DNA of 64,000 bases, taken from assembly GCA_964585085.1 (NCBI GenBank), contig CAZPCM010000001.1, positions 29,500 through 93,499 on the forward strand, given 5' to 3'. Each line of letters opens with the position of its first letter. The stretch's first letter is position 1. The notes beneath the pieces were generated by a model. That model was not told the origin of the DNA. It saw only the letters and a program-made list of their open reading frames with translations, and did no database searches. Below, one piece after another: positions 56,256 through 60,858 of the stretch. Position numbers and translations under genes: made by a program. The DNA is from an uncultured Propionibacteriaceae bacterium (lineage in GTDB: Bacteria > Actinomycetota > Actinomycetes > Propionibacteriales > Propionibacteriaceae).

Positions 56256-56462
56256 TCAGCTCAGGACGGTGACGTTCGCCGCCTGCAGGCCCTTCGGGCC
56301 CTGCTGGGTGTCGAACGACACACGGTCGCCCTCGTTCAGAGAGCGGAACCCGCGGGAATTGATCGCCGAGAAATGAACGAAGACGTCGGCGGAGCCATCC
56401 TCGGGAGCGATGAACCCGAAGCCCTTGTCGCCGTTGAACCACTTGACAGTACCGGTAGCCAT
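56256..56462 (-). CDS. cspA: Cold-shock protein
   Basis: [15 protein letters not shown] (RNP1) and VFVHFSAI (RNP2); 68 aa. Confidence 0.97.
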
Positions 56463-56924: not shown

Positions 56925-57434
56925 ATGGAACACGTCAGGACCGGCGCACACCACGTCCTCCCGCGCGGCGATCAGACCGTCACCTTCCACGGCGTCTGGA
57001 GCAACGACCGAACCGTCGTCGACCACCCCACCGGCGAGGTGCGCGGTCAGGAATGCACGCTGGTGTTCACCTTGCGAGTCGACCGTCATCGGCTCGACGG
57101 AGACGTCGCGCGACTGGGGTTCAGGGGCAGCCACAACGGCGACATCTTCACCCTGGACGTACCGGCGAGCATGGAATACCGGACAGGACTGTGGGATCTG
57201 CTGTTCCCGATCCGCTGGGTCTCCGCGGTGTCCGGCCCTTCCTCGGTCGAAGCGGGCGGCCCCGGGCAGCCGGCCACCGCGCCGAAGGAAGAGCGGCACT
57301 CCTACGCGGGGGCTTTCTACGCGGAAACCGTGCACGGCACCTACTACTGGCTCAAGTACCGCGGCGAGTCGGACTTCAGGTTCGACTACACCTCACTGCC
57401 CACGCTGGCCACCCTCGCGCCCACGGACCGGTAA
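56925..57434 (+). CDS. Hypothetical protein, 169 aa
   Basis: AAGGGG before the ATG; protein-like beta-rich composition; no family recognised. Confidence 0.6.
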   Translation: MEHVRTGAHHVLPRGDQTVTFHGVWSNDRTVVDHPTGEVRGQECTLVFTLRVDRHRLDGDVARLGFRGSHNGDIFTLDVPASMEYRTGLWDLLFPIRWVSAVSGPSSVEAGGPGQPATAPKEERHSYAGAFYAETVHGTYYWLKYRGESDFRFDYTSLPTLATLAPTDR

Positions 57435-57927
57435 GGCGTCCAGGAGCCGAGCCTGTCGGCGCGGTGGCCGGGCTCCGAACCGCGAGGCGGCCGCGGATGG
57501 CGGCGGCGGGGACGTAGGGGGAAGCCCAGGACCGGCTGTCGCTGGATCGGGTTCTGTTGTCGCCGAGAACGAGGTAGGCGTTCGGGGGGACGCGGAAGTG
57601 GCCAGAGGGGCCACCGCGGGTGTTGAGGTAGGGCTCCTCGAGGCGGTGGCCGTTGATAGCGACCTGGTCAGGGTGAATACGGACGTCGTCGCCCGGCAGC
57701 CCGATGACCCGCTTGATGACGCGGAAGCCCAGCTCTGCGGAGTCGATGACCACGATGTCGCCTCGGCCGATGCGCCGGCCGCCCCCGATTCTGCGGGTGG
57801 GGACGAGCGTGGGGGGCCGGAGCGTGGGATACATCGACCAGGAGCGGACGCGGGTGAGCCACCAGTGACGGCGCACCACCAGGGCGGCGGTGGCCACCAC
57901 CAGCGCTGCGAGCAGGGAGGCGTCCAT
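57376..57927 (-). CDS. S26-family (signal peptidase I / SodX-like) peptidase
   Basis: N-terminal hydrophobic anchor; SWSMYPTL (catalytic Ser), VIKRVIGLPGD (catalytic Lys) and GDNRTRSSDSR motifs; starts 5 nt after the DUF6448-like stop. Confidence 0.9.
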   Translation of the reverse strand: MDASLLAALVVATAALVVRRHWWLTRVRSWSMYPTLRPPTLVPTRRIGGGRRIGRGDIVVIDSAELGFRVIKRVIGLPGDDVRIHPDQVAINGHRLEEPYLNTRGGPSGHFRVPPNAYLVLGDNRTRSSDSRSWASPYVPAAAIRGRLAVRSPATAPTGSAPGRLTGPWARGWPAWAVRCSRT

Positions 57928-57932
57928 GACGG

Positions 57933-58607
57933 TCAGAGCTGGTGCGCGTGCCCGGGCGCGGCGGCCGGGGTGTGCTCGTGGTGGTACGCCTCGGGCCCGT
58001 GTCCGCCGTGACCTTGCTCGTGTTGACGGTGCTCGTGTTGACCGTGCTCGTGGCCGTGATCCTCGCCTTCGGCGTAGGTGAAGAAGGCGACGTAGGCGGC
58101 GATATAGCGGCGTCCCGCGATGACGTCGTCGAGCGGGTGGTCCTTCAGGGCGAGGGCGGCGTGGAGGCGATGGTCGAGTTCGGGTAGCCGGTCGGCGGGC
58201 ACGAGCCCGATGAGGGAGTCGATGCTGCCCGTGGCGATGGCCGTGTCAGCGGCGATCACCACCGGGTCGATCGCCGTGCCCTGGGGCTTGAGGCCGTCGA
58301 AGCCGGCGCCCTCCCCCGCCCGATGCAGTCGGACCAGAGTCTCCAGGAACAGCCGGTCCGCCACCTTGGTGGCGTCTCCGCCGAGAGCCCGGACCCGCAA
58401 GCAGGCGTCGAAGACCTCCCGCAGTTCGGGTTCGGCGTCTTCGCCGACCCATTTCAGGGCGTGGTTGAGGTTGCCCGTGGCCAGCGCGGCACGGCCGTCA
58501 GCGACGGCGGGTCCGTCCAGGGTGTCGCAGTGGGCGGCGGCGGCGCGAGGCCAGAACACGATCAAGGCGAACGCTGCGAACGCGGCCGCGAGGAGAAGGT
58601 GGTCCAT
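57933..58607 (-). CDS. DUF6448-like exported helical protein with predicted mature N-terminus HCD and a His-rich tail
   Basis: 25-aa hydrophobic leader ending AAAA, then HCDTLDGP, LKWV, FLETLVRLHRAGEGAGFDGLKP; C-terminal EDHGHEHGQHEHRQHEQGHGGHGPEAYHHEH. Confidence 0.8.
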   Translation of the reverse strand: MDHLLLAAAFAAFALIVFWPRAAAAHCDTLDGPAVADGRAALATGNLNHALKWVGEDAEPELREVFDACLRVRALGGDATKVADRLFLETLVRLHRAGEGAGFDGLKPQGTAIDPVVIAADTAIATGSIDSLIGLVPADRLPELDHRLHAALALKDHPLDDVIAGRRYIAAYVAFFTYAEGEDHGHEHGQHEHRQHEQGHGGHGPEAYHHEHTPAAAPGHAHQL

Positions 58608-58667
58608 GGTGGGGTCCTTTCAGTTTCGGATGACACTTCGACGGTAGGGCGGAGGCATCTGAGGTTC

Positions 58668-58683
58668 CTTGACGGGGGTCAAG
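58668..58683. promoter_or_regulatory. Fnr/Crp-type palindromic operator CTTGAC-GGGG-GTCAAG
   Basis: Perfect 6-bp arms with a 4-bp spacer, resembling the FNR box TTGAT-N4-ATCAA, between the divergent DUF6448-like and Crp/Fnr genes. Confidence 0.75.
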
Positions 58684-58727
58684 TTCGTGCGGATCGTGCC
58701 ACCCTGGGAGGGAGCAGGGGGTGGCGG

Positions 58728-59414
58728 ATGGGTGAGCCAGGCGATCTGTGTGTCACGCGGGTGCCGATCTTCGGCGGACTCGGGCCAAGGGAACAGGCAG
58801 CGGTCGCTGCAGTGGCGCGTCCGCTGCGGCTGGCGCGCGGGGAGAGCGCCTACACCGCGGGCGCGGCCGTGGGTCGGCTGCTGGTCGTCCACCACGGCCG
58901 GCTCGCCCTGGTCCACCACGGCGCGGACGGCCGGGACCAGGTGGTGCGGGTGCTCGGCGAGGGCGACTTCGTCGGTGAGGACGCGTTCCTGTCCGGCACC
59001 CGGCCCGGGCATGATGCAGTGGCCGCCTCCGAGGTGCAGCTGTGCACCTTCGCCCATCACGATCTGGCCGGCCTCGTCCGCCGTCATCCCGGGATCGCGG
59101 TGCGGATGCTGCACAGCGTCAGCGCTCGGCTGGCCGACGCCGAGCGGAGATTGGCGTCCCTGGCCGGCTCGGACGTCGGCGCCCGGTTGGCCGCCTACCT
59201 GCTGGACCAGCCGGCCAACCGGGACGCCTCCGGGCAGGCACTGGTTCGCCTGCCGATGGCGAAGAAGGACGTCGCGTCCTACCTCGGCACGACCCCCGAA
59301 TCGCTCAGCCGGGCCCTGGCCACCCTCGTCCGGGACGGGGCGATCGCCCAGTCCGGACGCCGGGACGTCGTCCTACTCGACCCCGACGCCCTCGAAGCCC
59401 GCGCGCACCGCTGA
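58728..59414 (+). CDS. Crp/Fnr-family regulator (Flp-like, two Cys)
   Basis: MGEPGDLCVTRVPIF; GDFVGE cNMP-domain motif; VQLCTF; LPMAKKDVASYLGTTPESLSRAL helix-turn-helix. Confidence 0.92.
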   Translation: MGEPGDLCVTRVPIFGGLGPREQAAVAAVARPLRLARGESAYTAGAAVGRLLVVHHGRLALVHHGADGRDQVVRVLGEGDFVGEDAFLSGTRPGHDAVAASEVQLCTFAHHDLAGLVRRHPGIAVRMLHSVSARLADAERRLASLAGSDVGARLAAYLLDQPANRDASGQALVRLPMAKKDVASYLGTTPESLSRALATLVRDGAIAQSGRRDVVLLDPDALEARAHR

Positions 59415-59461: not shown

Positions 59462-60547
59462 CTACCGGTACTCCAGCTTCCCGGAGTCCACCAGCGTGAG
59501 CGCCAGGGTCTCGCCCATGATGGCGAAGCTGACCGTGTTGCCGATCCCCGTGAGATATAGGTCGCCGTAGGAGCCCTCGCTGCAGGCCACGATGGTCGCC
59601 ACTCCCGGGACGAGGGTCAGGCTGCTACTCGAGCCCGACGGGTTGGACGGGGAGTACGTCCCGGAAACGGTGTTGCAGTCAGCCCGAGCGGTGAACGTGC
59701 CGTCCGCGCGGAACTGAAGCGTGTAGTCGGCCTGCTGATCCTGCGGCACGGAACCTTGGAACGGCGGCACCAGGAGCGTGAAGGCTGTGAGTTTCCACTC
59801 ACGACTGGTCAGACCCGGGCCGGGTGTGGGTTCCGGTGTCGGCTTGGGAGTGGGCGTGGACGTCGGCCTGACCGTGGACGCGCTGGGCGTGGGCGTCGGG
59901 GTCGGCCGGACCGTGGACGCACTCGGCGTCGGGGTCGGGGTCGGCCGGACCGTGGACGCACTCGGCGTGGACGTCGGCCTGACCGTGGAAGGTGTGCTCG
60001 GCGTCGGGGTGGTCGAGGGTGGCACGGTTACCGTCAGGGTGGCCGTCGGTGCGGGGGACGGCGTCGGCGTGACCGTGGGTTCAGCCGACTCACCCGCGCT
60101 GGGTGATGGGCTGGGGGGCGCGATCGACGTGTAGTCCAGCCGTCCGCCGTCCGCGAGAGTGAGACTCAACCCGGTTGAGGCGACGTTCCAGCTGCGGACC
60201 TGGCTCAGCGTGCTGGCATACAGGATGTCCAACGACAGCTCACCGCAGAAGGCCATGGACATCGGCCCGGGAGTGATGGTGACCCGGTCCGATCCGCGTG
60301 CCTCCCAGGATCCGGCCAGCTGGTTGCAGTCGGCCCGCGAGGTGAACGTGCTGTTCTTCTCGAACCGGATGGTGTACCGGGACTGCAGGTCCGGCGGCAC
60401 GGTCCACTGCCAGGACGGGTTCTTCTCCCCGCCCGCGACCAGATACCAGGTCGTGGCGGTCAACTGGTCTGTGTTGCTGCTGCTGCACGCGGCGAGGAGA
60501 ACACCGCCCAGAGCGAGCACCATGGCCATCGCGATTGCTTTTCGCAC
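59462..60547 (-). CDS. Lipoprotein with two META (HslJ-like) domains joined by a Pro/Thr repeat linker
   Basis: Lipobox VLLAAC; two copies of YT(I/L)xF...F(T)xRADCNxxxG...(M/I)xxC; STVRPTPTPTPSA repeats at about 59820-60060. Confidence 0.85.
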   Translation of the reverse strand: MRKAIAMAMVLALGGVLLAACSSSNTDQLTATTWYLVAGGEKNPSWQWTVPPDLQSRYTIRFEKNSTFTSRADCNQLAGSWEARGSDRVTITPGPMSMAFCGELSLDILYASTLSQVRSWNVASTGLSLTLADGGRLDYTSIAPPSPSPSAGESAEPTVTPTPSPAPTATLTVTVPPSTTPTPSTPSTVRPTSTPSASTVRPTPTPTPSASTVRPTPTPTPSASTVRPTSTPTPKPTPEPTPGPGLTSREWKLTAFTLLVPPFQGSVPQDQQADYTLQFRADGTFTARADCNTVSGTYSPSNPSGSSSSLTLVPGVATIVACSEGSYGDLYLTGIGNTVSFAIMGETLALTLVDSGKLEYR

Positions 60548-60612
60548 GCGTCCTCCCTCAGGGTCTCTGGTGCCGGACGGCGTCGCGTCCCGGCAGCCAC
60601 CGGGCGGGCACA

Positions 60613-60858
60613 TCATCCCACAGCTCGGCGCGCCATCTCCTCAACGATCCAGCGCGCGGTGTCGCGGGTGCACGCCCCTGGCTCACTGAAGCTCACGGCG
60701 AAGACGCCGGTGATCTCGGTCAGTTGCGGGACGCCTCGCAGAGCCAGGATCGCGTCAGCCTCCGCTGCGTACTCGTCCGATGGAGCACCGCCCGCGATGA
60801 GCCCCACCGGGTCGGCCTCGGCCAGAATCCTGATCAGTTCGTCCCTTGTGATGGCCAC
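60613..60858 (-). CDS. Small hypothetical protein (DUF1871-like), probably leaderless
   Basis: ADPVGLIAGGAPSDEYAAEA motif; TAGGCT 7 nt upstream of the GTG start. Confidence 0.65.
   Translation of the reverse strand: MAITRDELIRILAEADPVGLIAGGAPSDEYAAEADAILALRGVPQLTEITGVFAVSFSEPGACTRDTARWIVEEMARRAVG

What the first reader, a model, noticed from the sequence alone, without database searches (positions are those of the whole stretch)
57376..59414. Candidate new metalloprotein maturation system: His-Cys-Asp 'hook' protein, dedicated S26 peptidase and Fnr-type regulator (sodN-sodX-like logic)
Seen: a 25-aa leader with no basic n-region ends AAAA, exposing H-C-D-T-L-D-G-P. The S26 peptidase gene starts 5 nt after the stop, and a divergent Crp/Fnr gene with a palindromic box lies upstream. 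Knowledge: nickel superoxide dismutase (SodN) needs cleavage by the S26-family peptidase SodX to free His1-Cys2-Asp3, whose amine and thiolate bind nickel (hook HCDxPCGxY). Inference: this DUF6448-like helical protein uses an analogous processed N-terminal metal hook. It lacks Cys6, so the metal or chemistry would differ (an exported redox/NO-stress enzyme or a Ni/Cu chaperone), under O2, NO or metal control.
Basis: partly seen in the sequence, partly recalled or inferred. Interest (0 to 1): 0.87.

Follow-up and report, generated by a model that had tools for sequence, protein, structure and literature searches.

The report
Protease-matured His-Cys-Asp protein operon
An uncharacterised helical protein (DUF6448) is encoded next to its own signal-peptidase-like enzyme and an Fnr-type regulator; the enzyme most likely cuts off a leader to free a His-Cys-Asp N-terminus, as in nickel superoxide dismutase, but on an unrelated fold tied by gene context to nitric-oxide and oxidative stress genes.

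Summary
Window 57933-58607(-) encodes a 224-aa DUF6448 protein whose 25-aa uncharged leader ends AAAA|HCDTLDGP. An S26 peptidase gene (57376-57927) starts 5 nt after its stop. A divergent Crp/Fnr gene (58728-59414) shares a perfect TTGAC-N4-GTCAA box (58669-58682).

His-Cys-Asp sits directly after the leader in all 120 close homologues and in nearly all full-length diverse representatives. The family frees this N-terminus in two ways. Bacteroidota and Clostridia members have classical Sec signal peptides and no linked peptidase. Actinomycetota and Pseudomonadota members (54 of 80 loci) lack a basic n-region and carry a dedicated S26 gene whose membrane anchor co-varies with leader hydrophobicity.

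The linked peptidases are neither housekeeping LepB nor SodX. Profile comparison with NiSOD matches only leader plus hook, Cys6 is replaced by Asp/Glu/Asn, and the fold has no PDB relative.

Fusions and neighbours (hemerythrin/RIC, Hcp, cupin, an HcpR-type box) point to nitrosative or oxidative stress.

Processing, metal binding and activity are inferred, not shown. In this clade processing probably occurs at the cytoplasmic face rather than during export. I found no literature on DUF6448.

The parts
57933..58607 (-). DUF6448 precursor gene (224 aa): leader residues 1-25, mature protein from His26
   Evidence: ORF; Pfam PF20046 at E 9e-50; more than 1450 clusters of relatives
58533..58607 (-). 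Leader MDHLLLAAAFAAFALIVFWPRAAAA: hydrophobic, no K/R before the core, Pro-Arg after it, Ala at -1 and -3
   Evidence: The same leader type occurs in other S26-linked loci. 49 of 54 S26-linked leaders have fewer than 2 K/R in the n-region, against 2 of 26 unlinked ones
58509..58532 (-). Predicted mature N-terminus His26-Cys27-Asp28-Thr-Leu-Asp-Gly-Pro ('hook')
   Evidence: H, C, D, G and P invariant in 129 diverse representatives. HCDT-x-[DE]-GP (Gly or Ala at position 6 in 3) in all 120 close homologues. pLDDT 88 in the mature-protein model
57936..58067 (-). C-terminal AEGE-His-rich tail (residues 181-224; low model confidence)
   Evidence: His count in the tail has a median of 8 in S26-linked members and 4 in Sec-type members
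57376..57927 (-). Dedicated S26 (signal-peptidase-I-like) peptidase, 183 aa: N-terminal anchor followed by RRHWWLTRVR, Ser31 in SMYPTL, Lys72 in VIKRVIGLPGD, GDNRTRSSDSR box
   Evidence: It is one of two S26 genes in the genome; the other is the housekeeping LepB on contig C84
58669..58682 (.). FNR/HcpR-type palindrome TTGACGGGGGTCAA in the divergent promoter region
   Evidence: A perfect TTGA[CT]-N4-GTCAA box lies about 70 nt upstream of the DUF6448 ATG in nearly all Crp-linked loci. It matches the HcpR motif wyTTGACnnnnGTCAArw (PMC1274295)
58641..58646 (-). Possible -10 element TACCGT (TAnnnT type). It would centre the box at about -41.5 from the transcription start
   Evidence: Read directly; inference only. 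The sigma-70 consensus scan found nothing
58728..59414 (+). Crp/Fnr-family regulator, 228 aa, with two invariant Cys (C8, C106), invariant His55 and an E--SR recognition helix (PESLSR)
   Evidence: Pfam hit; generic FnrL/FixK-like matches below NCBIfam cut-offs; conservation across 26 linked regulators

Best explanation
This is a three-gene module. An Fnr/HcpR-like regulator with two conserved cysteines binds the TTGAC-N4-GTCAA box and switches on a two-gene operon, probably in response to a redox or NO signal. The operon encodes a DUF6448 precursor and, translationally coupled 5 nt downstream, its own S26 Ser-Lys peptidase. The peptidase cuts after Ala25 (AAAA|H), so that His26 becomes residue 1. 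The free N-terminus H-C-D-T-x-D-G-P then forms the functional site. That site is most likely a metal site built from the terminal amine, the His1 imidazole and the Cys2 thiolate or amide. Asp6, or conserved residues of the helical body (Glu89, His95, Glu99, Asp121), could complete it. The His-rich tail may help capture metal. In this clade both the leader and the peptidase anchor have their positive charges after the hydrophobic segment, so cleavage most likely occurs on the cytoplasmic face of the membrane and releases the mature protein inside the cell, as for NiSOD/SodX. The protein most likely works in the nitrosative or oxidative stress response, alongside hemerythrin/RIC and Hcp-type proteins. 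What is shown: gene order, motif invariance, co-variation of leader and peptidase, box conservation, and the fusions and neighbours. What is inferred: the cleavage, the topology, metal binding and the biochemical role.
For: - HCD sits directly after an AxA-type site in 120 of 120 close homologues and is invariant in 129 diverse representatives.
- S26 lies directly downstream in 54 of 80 species loci.
- Within the genus, every strong extra S26 gene (82-106 bits) sits beside a DUF6448 gene, including two pairs in G151.
- S26-linked precursors lack a basic n-region (49 of 54), whereas unlinked ones have classical Sec leaders (24 of 26). Fisher p = 2e-13.
- Hydrophobic leaders pair with anchor-bearing peptidases (17 of 18). 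Weak leaders pair with anchor-less peptidases that start about 10 residues before the catalytic Ser (34 of 34). p = 8e-13.
- The window's juxta-catalytic motif RRHWWLTRVRSW|SM matches the anchor-less MWWLTRVRSH|SM peptidases in the same tree clade.
- SodX proteins show the same two architectures.
- Profile-profile alignment with NiSOD matches l-P-x-r-x-x-x-A|HCD-x-x-x-G at P = 8.6e-4.
- A perfect FNR-type box lies at about -70 in nearly all Crp-linked loci, whatever the orientation of the regulator gene.
- C8, C106 and H55 are invariant in 26 linked regulators.
- Fusions exist of DUF6448 with hemerythrin, with ScdA_N plus hemerythrin (the RIC architecture) and with cupin.
- Hemerythrin neighbours occur in 10 loci, cupin in 10, Hcp in 2 and P-type ATPases in 7.
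- The box equals the published HcpR motif (PMC1274295).
Against: - No experiment or read data show cleavage, metal binding or expression (searches gave nothing usable).
- The NiSOD similarity is confined to 19 columns at 24% hhalign probability and could be convergent.
- Cys6, essential in NiSOD, is absent.
- The cytoplasmic-face topology rests only on the positive-inside rule and on sister clades.
- The association statistics are not corrected for phylogeny.
- Two loci with S26-type leaders (L056, L076) show no S26 gene in the DNA held.
- The DUF6448-RIC fusions carry Sec-like leaders with no transmembrane segment between the domains. This is hard to reconcile with a cytoplasmic RIC domain.
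- The genome already has an Fe/Mn SOD.
Confidence: 0.62

Rival explanations
1. This is a dedicated export system. The S26 enzyme is a specialised true signal peptidase, as SipW is for TasA in Bacillus subtilis. It removes an unusual signal peptide during secretion, and the mature HCD protein acts outside the membrane, for example as a copper-binding N-terminal-His protein of the envelope.
For: The window's leader has a 16-17 residue hydrophobic core and an AxA site, and its peptidase has a hydrophobic anchor. The peptidase scores above the cut-off for bacterial signal peptidase I (TIGR02227). Many family members are clearly exported. They have Sec leaders, C-terminal anchors and, in two Clostridium loci, an adjacent sortase.
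Against: Neither the leader nor the peptidase has a basic residue before its hydrophobic segment; both have Arg after it. 34 linked peptidases have no anchor or signal at all and pair with weakly hydrophobic, NiSOD-like leaders, so they must act in the cytoplasm. The window's peptidase clusters with such anchor-less enzymes. An exported protein would not need its own peptidase, as the Sec-type members show.
Confidence: 0.17
2. The freed N-terminus is not a metal site but a thiol-based catalytic or sensing centre. A His1-Cys2 pair would react directly with NO, peroxide or nitrosothiols, and the His-rich tail would be incidental.
For: There is a single invariant Cys next to an invariant His. The context of RIC, Hcp and a two-Cys regulator suggests reactive nitrogen or oxygen species.
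Against: A thiol enzyme has no obvious need for a free alpha-amine on the preceding residue, yet the family has evolved two separate routes to create exactly that. The His-rich tail is longer in the cytoplasmic type. Heavy-metal P-type ATPases are over-represented nearby. The hook resembles the NiSOD metal hook.
Confidence: 0.12
3. It is a divergent nickel superoxide dismutase, a true SodN/SodX pair.
For: An HCD start after a leader, Gly7, an adjacent S26 gene and a weak TIGR02754 hit.
Against: Pfam reports only DUF6448 for this protein. hhalign matches only leader plus hook. Asp replaces Cys6. Two confident models give no Foldseek match below E = 1, with NiSOD not among the matches listed. 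The peptidase scores 22 bits against a 63-bit cut-off and falls outside the SodX clade.
Confidence: 0.04
4. The adjacency is a chance arrangement of an ordinary secreted protein, a spare LepB paralogue and an unrelated regulator.
For: None beyond the generic nature of each Pfam hit.
Against: 54 of 80 loci across several phyla keep the pair. The extra S26 gene co-occurs with DUF6448 within the genus. Leader and peptidase co-vary. The box is conserved.
Confidence: 0.02

Closest known systems
Nickel superoxide dismutase SodN with its maturation protease SodX (Streptomyces, cyanobacteria)
   Same: The precursor has a short leader ending in a small residue before His-Cys-Asp. Gly is at position 7 of the mature chain. 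A dedicated S26-family peptidase gene is adjacent, and both anchor-less and anchored peptidase forms occur. The maturation protease activates NiSOD by cleaving the preprotein (PMC8346466).
   Different: The protein body is unrelated: DUF6448, about 150 residues, eight helices in the model, no Sod_Ni hit and no NiSOD fold match. Residue 6 is Asp/Glu/Asn rather than Cys, and Pro is at position 8 rather than 5. The peptidase falls outside the SodX clade and below the TIGR02754 cut-off. Part of the family is exported through Sec. There is a His-rich tail.
SipW-type dedicated signal peptidases (tapA-sipW-tasA operon of Bacillus subtilis; from my own knowledge)
   Same: An S26-family peptidase is encoded in one operon with the substrate it processes.
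   Different: SipW is an ER-type S26B enzyme acting during secretion. Here the enzyme is a bacterial-type S26A, most linked enzymes lack any membrane anchor, and the cleaved product's new N-terminus is itself the conserved functional motif.
Extracytoplasmic N-terminal-histidine copper proteins (CopC, YcnI, LPMO 'histidine brace'; from my own knowledge)
   Same: Signal-peptide cleavage creates a mature N-terminal His whose amine and imidazole bind metal. This matches the Sec-type DUF6448 members.
   Different: There is no fold or sequence relation. An invariant Cys2 follows His1. A large clade appears cytoplasmic and has its own peptidase.
HcpR / Fnr-like regulators of nitrosative-stress genes
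   Same: A Crp/Fnr-family protein is transcribed divergently from its target and has a TTGACnnnnGTCAA site (PMC1274295). It has an E--SR recognition helix. FNR-like proteins with only two cysteines are known in Gram-positive bacteria (PMC5039431).
   Different: It reaches no NCBIfam cut-off. The target here is DUF6448-S26 rather than hcp. The sensing mechanism is unknown.

Membership tests
DUF6448 (Pfam PF20046) | Profile HMM match above the gathering score | tested here: met
   168.9 bits against a cut-off of 27, covering profile positions 1-147 of 147
NiSOD / SodN (Pfam PF09055 Sod_Ni) | Sequence membership in the Sod_Ni profile | tested here: not met
   The Pfam scan reports only DUF6448. 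hhalign against 24 actinobacterial NiSODs aligns 19 columns (leader plus hook) at 24% probability
NiSOD / SodN | Ni-hook His1-Cys2-Asp3-x-Pro5-Cys6-Gly7-x-Tyr9 with two Cys ligands | tested here: not met
   The window has HCDTLDGPA. Position 6 is Asp/Glu/Asn across the family, with no second Cys and no Tyr9
NiSOD / SodN | Four-helix-bundle NiSOD fold | tested here: not met
   Models with pLDDT 87.7 and 95.0 give no Foldseek PDB match below E = 1, and NiSOD is not among the matches listed
NiSOD / SodN | Proteolytic exposure of His1, Ni binding and superoxide dismutation | not testable with these tools
   Needs protein chemistry
SodX (NCBIfam TIGR02754, NiSOD maturation protease) | HMM score above the curated cut-off | tested here: not met
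   22 bits against 63.25
SodX | Groups with sodN-adjacent peptidases in a tree | tested here: not met
   14 SodX form their own clade (SH-aLRT 99). The window's enzyme lies in a separate DUF6448-linked clade. The backbone of the tree is unresolved
Peptidase S26 / signal peptidase I (PF10502, TIGR02227) | HMM above cut-off and catalytic Ser-Lys boxes | tested here: met
   106.4 bits against 22.9, and 99.5 bits against 47. SMYPTL, KRVIGLPGD and GDNRxxSxDSR are read
Peptidase S26 / signal peptidase I | Housekeeping role, with N-in anchor and the catalytic domain outside | tested here: inconclusive
   There is no K/R before the anchor and four Arg after it, the opposite of LepB L110. The housekeeping LepB is a different gene on C84. 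Topology was not measured
Crp/Fnr transcription factors | cNMP-binding-like domain plus Crp-type HTH | tested here: met
   PF00027 at E 8.7e-16 and PF13545 at E 1.5e-19
FNR proper (oxygen-sensing [4Fe-4S]) | Four-cysteine cluster-binding motif | tested here: not met
   Only C8 and C106 are present and conserved. NF008365 Fnr scores 43.6 bits against 228
HcpR-like NO-stress regulators | TTGACnnnnGTCAA operator next to the regulated gene | tested here: met
   The box is at 58669-58682 and conserved in nearly all Crp-linked loci. The motif is as in PMC1274295. Orthology to HcpR was not tested

The most novel reading that the evidence does not exclude
DUF6448 is a previously unrecognised class of N-terminal-hook metalloenzyme that arose independently of NiSOD or borrowed its leader-hook module. 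It would use a His1/Cys2(/Asp6) site on a new helical fold to detoxify or sense NO or superoxide. It would exist in an exported form matured by the general signal peptidase and a cytoplasmic form matured by its own SodX-like peptidase. It would act in one pathway with RIC/YtfE and Hcp.
Probability: 0.25. Interest if true: 0.9.

Novelty: new variant of a known kind. Interest (0 to 1): 0.78.

Why it matters
NiSOD/SodX is, as far as I know, the textbook and essentially only case in which a cytoplasmic signal-peptidase homologue exists to create a metal-binding N-terminus. This module shows the same logic on an unrelated protein family that has no PDB fold relative. The family is large: more than 1450 clusters at 50% identity and at least 586 matching stretches in the species-genome collection. 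It is widespread in wastewater, sediment and gut anaerobes and in denitrifiers.

The two alternative maturation routes are a natural experiment. They argue that the free His1 amine is the point of the system. The fusions with RIC/hemerythrin and the neighbouring Hcp give a concrete and testable link to nitrosative stress and Fe-S repair, where several steps are still unassigned.

If metal binding and activity are confirmed, this would add a new metalloprotein class and a second family of substrate-dedicated S26 peptidases.

Tried and rejected
- **Sequence and profile searches of the PDB.** They found nothing meaningful.
- **Foldseek of two confident models against the PDB.** Best E was 1.8 to 2.9 and TM at most 0.33, so there is no fold assignment. 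No library of predicted cellular structures was available.
- **NiSOD membership.** Rejected. The genome has no sodN, and the same search finds sodN in 49 of 151 genomes of the phylum.
- **Expression evidence.** Only one candidate run of unknown type turned up, with depth 1-3 contig fragments, so it is uninformative.
- **Sigma-70 consensus promoter scan.** None found, as expected for a high-GC actinobacterium.
- **Literature.** There were no hits for DUF6448, and nothing on an HCD/S26 system outside NiSOD.
- **Neighbour clustering for a third conserved structural gene.** None exists beyond S26 and the regulator. Neighbours are mostly varied regulators (AraC in Bacteroidota, two-component systems in Clostridia, Crp in Actinomycetota, and a MerR beside the P0137 fusion).
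- **Metal identity from adjacent P-type ATPases.** The signatures are mixed (SPC, CPC, TPC), so no call is possible.
- **SOD redundancy.** The genome has an Fe/Mn SOD, so a SOD role is not required.
Full report
**1. What is in the window**

On the minus strand, 57933-58607 encodes a 224-aa protein, MDHLLLAAAFAAFALIVFWPRAAAA|HCDTLDGPAVADGR.... It matches Pfam DUF6448 over the whole profile (E 9e-50). The match starts at residue 31, so the HCD motif lies just upstream of the Pfam domain.

Its stop is at 57933-57935. Five bases later, at 57927, a 183-aa S26 peptidase begins (PF10502 E 2e-30; TIGR02227 99.5 bits against a cut-off of 47). The peptidase has intact Ser (SWSMYPTL), Lys (VIKRVIGLPGD) and GDNRTRSSDSR boxes.

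Divergently, 58728-59414 encodes a 228-aa Crp/Fnr regulator. My first scan of it used a wrong frame and was repeated correctly.

The intergenic region holds a perfect palindrome, TTGACGGGGGTCAA, at 58669-58682.

**2. The family and its N-terminus**

The word-indexed search found 1453 relatives at E <= 0.001. The exhaustive search found 1450 clusters at 50% identity. They come from Actinomycetota, Pseudomonadota, Bacillota, Bacteroidota, Spirochaetes and Myxococcota.

- In all 120 close homologues the mature start reads HCDT-x-[DE]-GP, with Gly or Ala at position 6 in three, directly after a small-residue cleavage site.
- Among 148 diverse representatives the full-length ones read HCD-[TSAG]-x-[DEN]-GP. 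Only four have a deviant His or Cys, and these may be metagenome errors.
- In an alignment of 129 diverse members the invariant or near-invariant positions are H26, C27, D28, G32, P33, W53, E59, E89, H95, R96, E99, G100, G105, D121, R166 and Y172.
- A C-terminal AEGE-His-rich tail follows the domain.

**3. Two ways to free His1**

I sorted the 80 best genome loci by whether an S26 gene follows. The result is a sharp dichotomy.

*Loci without S26 (26 of 80; Bacteroidota, Clostridia, a spirochaete).* These precursors have textbook Sec signal peptides with 2-8 Lys/Arg in the n-region (24 of 26). Many also have a C-terminal membrane anchor. In Clostridium magnum and C. tanneri there is a sortase-type signal with an adjacent sortase gene.

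*Loci with S26 (54 of 80; Actinomycetota, Pseudomonadota, some Bacillota).* These leaders have fewer than two basic residues before the core (49 of 54; Fisher p = 2e-13). They fall into two groups:

- Short, weakly hydrophobic leaders of two related kinds, such as MFINRIATLLAALKPATVQA and MNITTLLGLFVRTASA. They pair with peptidases that start only about 10 residues before the catalytic Ser (MKRLVRVAGE|SMAPTY or MWWLTRVRSH|SMAPTL). These peptidases have no anchor and no signal, so they are cytoplasmic (34 of 34).
- Long hydrophobic leaders with an uncharged N-terminus and Pro-Arg/Lys after the core, the window's type. They pair with peptidases that carry a hydrophobic anchor with no basic residue before it and RR/RK right after it (17 of 18; p = 8e-13).

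The window's RRHWWLTRVRSW|SM closely resembles the anchor-less MWWLTRVRSH|SM enzymes, and the two lie in the same tree clade. By the positive-inside rule (established knowledge), and given these sister enzymes, the catalytic domain and the mature substrate most likely lie on the cytoplasmic side. This step is inferred, not shown. These statistics are not phylogenetically corrected. On a tree of the mature domains, the S26 state needs only about 5 changes against 22 expected by shuffling.

**4. The peptidase is dedicated**

The genome has two S26 genes: the housekeeping LepB on contig C84 (128.8 bits) and this one. In the congeneric genomes searched for both families, every strong extra S26 gene (82-106 bits) sits beside a DUF6448 gene: one pair in G000 and two in G151. 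Four other genomes show only weak second matches (20-25 bits) and no DUF6448.

In a maximum-likelihood tree:

- LepB forms one clade (SH-aLRT 100).
- SodX forms another (99).
- The DUF6448-linked enzymes form at least two further groups, separate from both.
- The deep branches are unresolved.

The window's enzyme scores higher against some SodX proteins (up to 60 bits) than against its own genome's LepB (21 bits). It still fails the SodX model (22 bits against 63.25).

**5. Relation to NiSOD**

I collected 24 actinobacterial NiSODs with their SodX genes. Their leaders (such as MLEAFLKPRRSVHA|HCDLPCGVY) resemble the short DUF6448 leaders. SodX also comes with and without an anchor.

Profile-profile alignment aligns only 19 columns, l-P-x-r-x-x-x-A|H-C-D-x-x-x-G (P = 8.6e-4, probability 24%). 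The rest is unrelated:

- Pfam reports no Sod_Ni hit for the DUF6448 protein.
- Position 6 is Asp/Glu/Asn rather than Cys.
- AlphaFold models of the precursor (pLDDT 87.7) and of the mature core (pLDDT 95.0, pTM 0.88, eight helices, hook pLDDT 88) have no Foldseek match in the PDB below E = 1. NiSOD is not among the matches listed.
- Sequence and profile searches of PDB chains are empty.

So it works like sodN-sodX in its maturation logic but is not a member of either family. The genome has no sodN. It does have an Fe/Mn SOD.

**6. Regulation**

A perfect TTGA[CT]-N4-GTCAA box lies 57-82 nt (mostly about 70) upstream of the DUF6448 start codon in nearly all of the 32 loci with an adjacent Crp gene. 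Three are offset (-40, -171, -130/-82) and four have none. The box is there whether the regulator is divergent upstream, as here, or convergent downstream of the peptidase. It also occurs in several loci without a local regulator.

In the window a TAnnnT-type hexamer (TACCGT, 58641-58646) would place the box centre at about -41.5, the class II activation geometry. This is my reading and is an inference; one search found no sigma-70 consensus.

The 26 closest linked regulators share invariant Cys8, Cys106 and His55, and the E--SR recognition helix. They lack the four-Cys FNR cluster motif. Two-Cys FNR-like proteins are known in Gram-positive bacteria (PMC5039431). The box equals the HcpR motif wyTTGACnnnnGTCAArw that was described for regulators divergently transcribed from hcp or norB (PMC1274295).

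**7. Functional context**

No further structural gene is conserved beside the pair. Upstream neighbours are mostly regulators of lineage-specific type: AraC with a membrane domain in 11-12 Bacteroidota loci, Crp, and two-component systems.

Recurrent non-regulatory partners are:

- hemerythrin-domain proteins (10 loci, all of the Sec type);
- small cupins (10 loci);
- P-type ATPases (7 loci, several of heavy-metal type with mixed signatures);
- TetR regulators;
- the hybrid-cluster protein Hcp, directly adjacent in two Bacteroidota loci.

Domain fusions are decisive for an association. Among ten long representatives, five are DUF6448 plus hemerythrin, two are DUF6448 plus ScdA_N plus hemerythrin (the RIC/YtfE architecture) and one is DUF6448 plus cupin. 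One fusion sits in the cluster MerR, DUF6448-RIC, hemerythrin, ferredoxin, RIC.

RIC/YtfE and Hcp are established players in nitrosative stress and Fe-S repair (PMC9052748 and PMC9268430, listed). Many carriers are denitrifiers or anaerobes. The window's organism recurs in wastewater, sludge and biofilm metagenomes.

**8. Distribution**

The module is accessory. DUF6448 occurs in 3 of 151 sampled genomes of the phylum and 3 of 19 of the genus. The window's protein is closest to an Actinomycetota MAG (84% identity) and then to Hyphomicrobiaceae and Neoroseomonas proteins. This indicates transfer between phyla.

**9. Verdict**

'Exported' is probably wrong for this clade. The nature of the site (metal, and which one) and the activity are open.

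I treated it as a lead and re-derived the claims here. This report adds the two-route dichotomy, the leader-peptidase co-variation, the regulator box and the RIC/Hcp/cupin link. I found no publication on DUF6448.

Noticed in passing
P0137, P0243, P0164, P0263, P0152, P0210, P0187, P0165; L137:6001-7383: These are natural fusions of DUF6448 with hemerythrin, with ScdA_N plus hemerythrin (RIC/YtfE architecture) or with cupin. They carry Sec-like leaders and have no transmembrane segment between the domains, which would imply an exported RIC-type di-iron domain. That is odd and unexplained.
   Followed up: partly
L037:5710-7347 (-) and L061:5765-7402 (+): A full-length hybrid-cluster protein (Hcp, Prismane, E about 1e-165) lies directly next to DUF6448 in a Bacteroidaceae and a Rikenellaceae genome.
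   Followed up: partly
L039:5885-6628 and L047:5860-6603: In Clostridium magnum and C. tanneri, DUF6448 is followed by a sortase gene. The DUF6448 protein ends in an NPKTA-hydrophobic-basic sorting-signal-like tail, which suggests a cell-wall-anchored form.
   Followed up: no
L056 and L076: Two loci have the uncharged hydrophobic 'S26-type' leader but no S26 gene in the DNA held. L056 is a 2.9-kb contig. The peptidase may lie elsewhere or be missing.
   Followed up: no
window 56925-57434 (+): This 169-aa ORF has no Pfam or NCBIfam match. It is convergent with the S26 gene and overlaps its 3' end by 59 nt. Gene callers also call it on a Logan contig (L106).
   Followed up: partly
window 59462-60616 (-): This META-domain protein has a lipoprotein-like N-terminus and a central Thr/Pro-rich tandem repeat (STVRPTPTPTPSA repeated). 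It is convergent with the regulator gene and also lies next to the module on L106.
   Followed up: no
window 56256-56462 (-): A 68-aa cold-shock (CspA-like) protein gene lies about 900 nt from the S26 gene. It was read from the translation only.
   Followed up: no
G151 contigs C270 and C160 (L125, L131, L132, L135): A congeneric genome carries two separate DUF6448-S26 pairs of the short-leader, anchor-less type, unlike the window's anchored type. The genus has therefore acquired the module more than once.
   Followed up: partly
L004, L006-L011, L013, L015, L016 and others: In many Actinomycetota the Crp gene is convergent with the S26 gene and overlaps its 3' end by about 40 nt, while the box stays upstream of DUF6448. 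This is a very compact three-gene cassette.
   Followed up: partly
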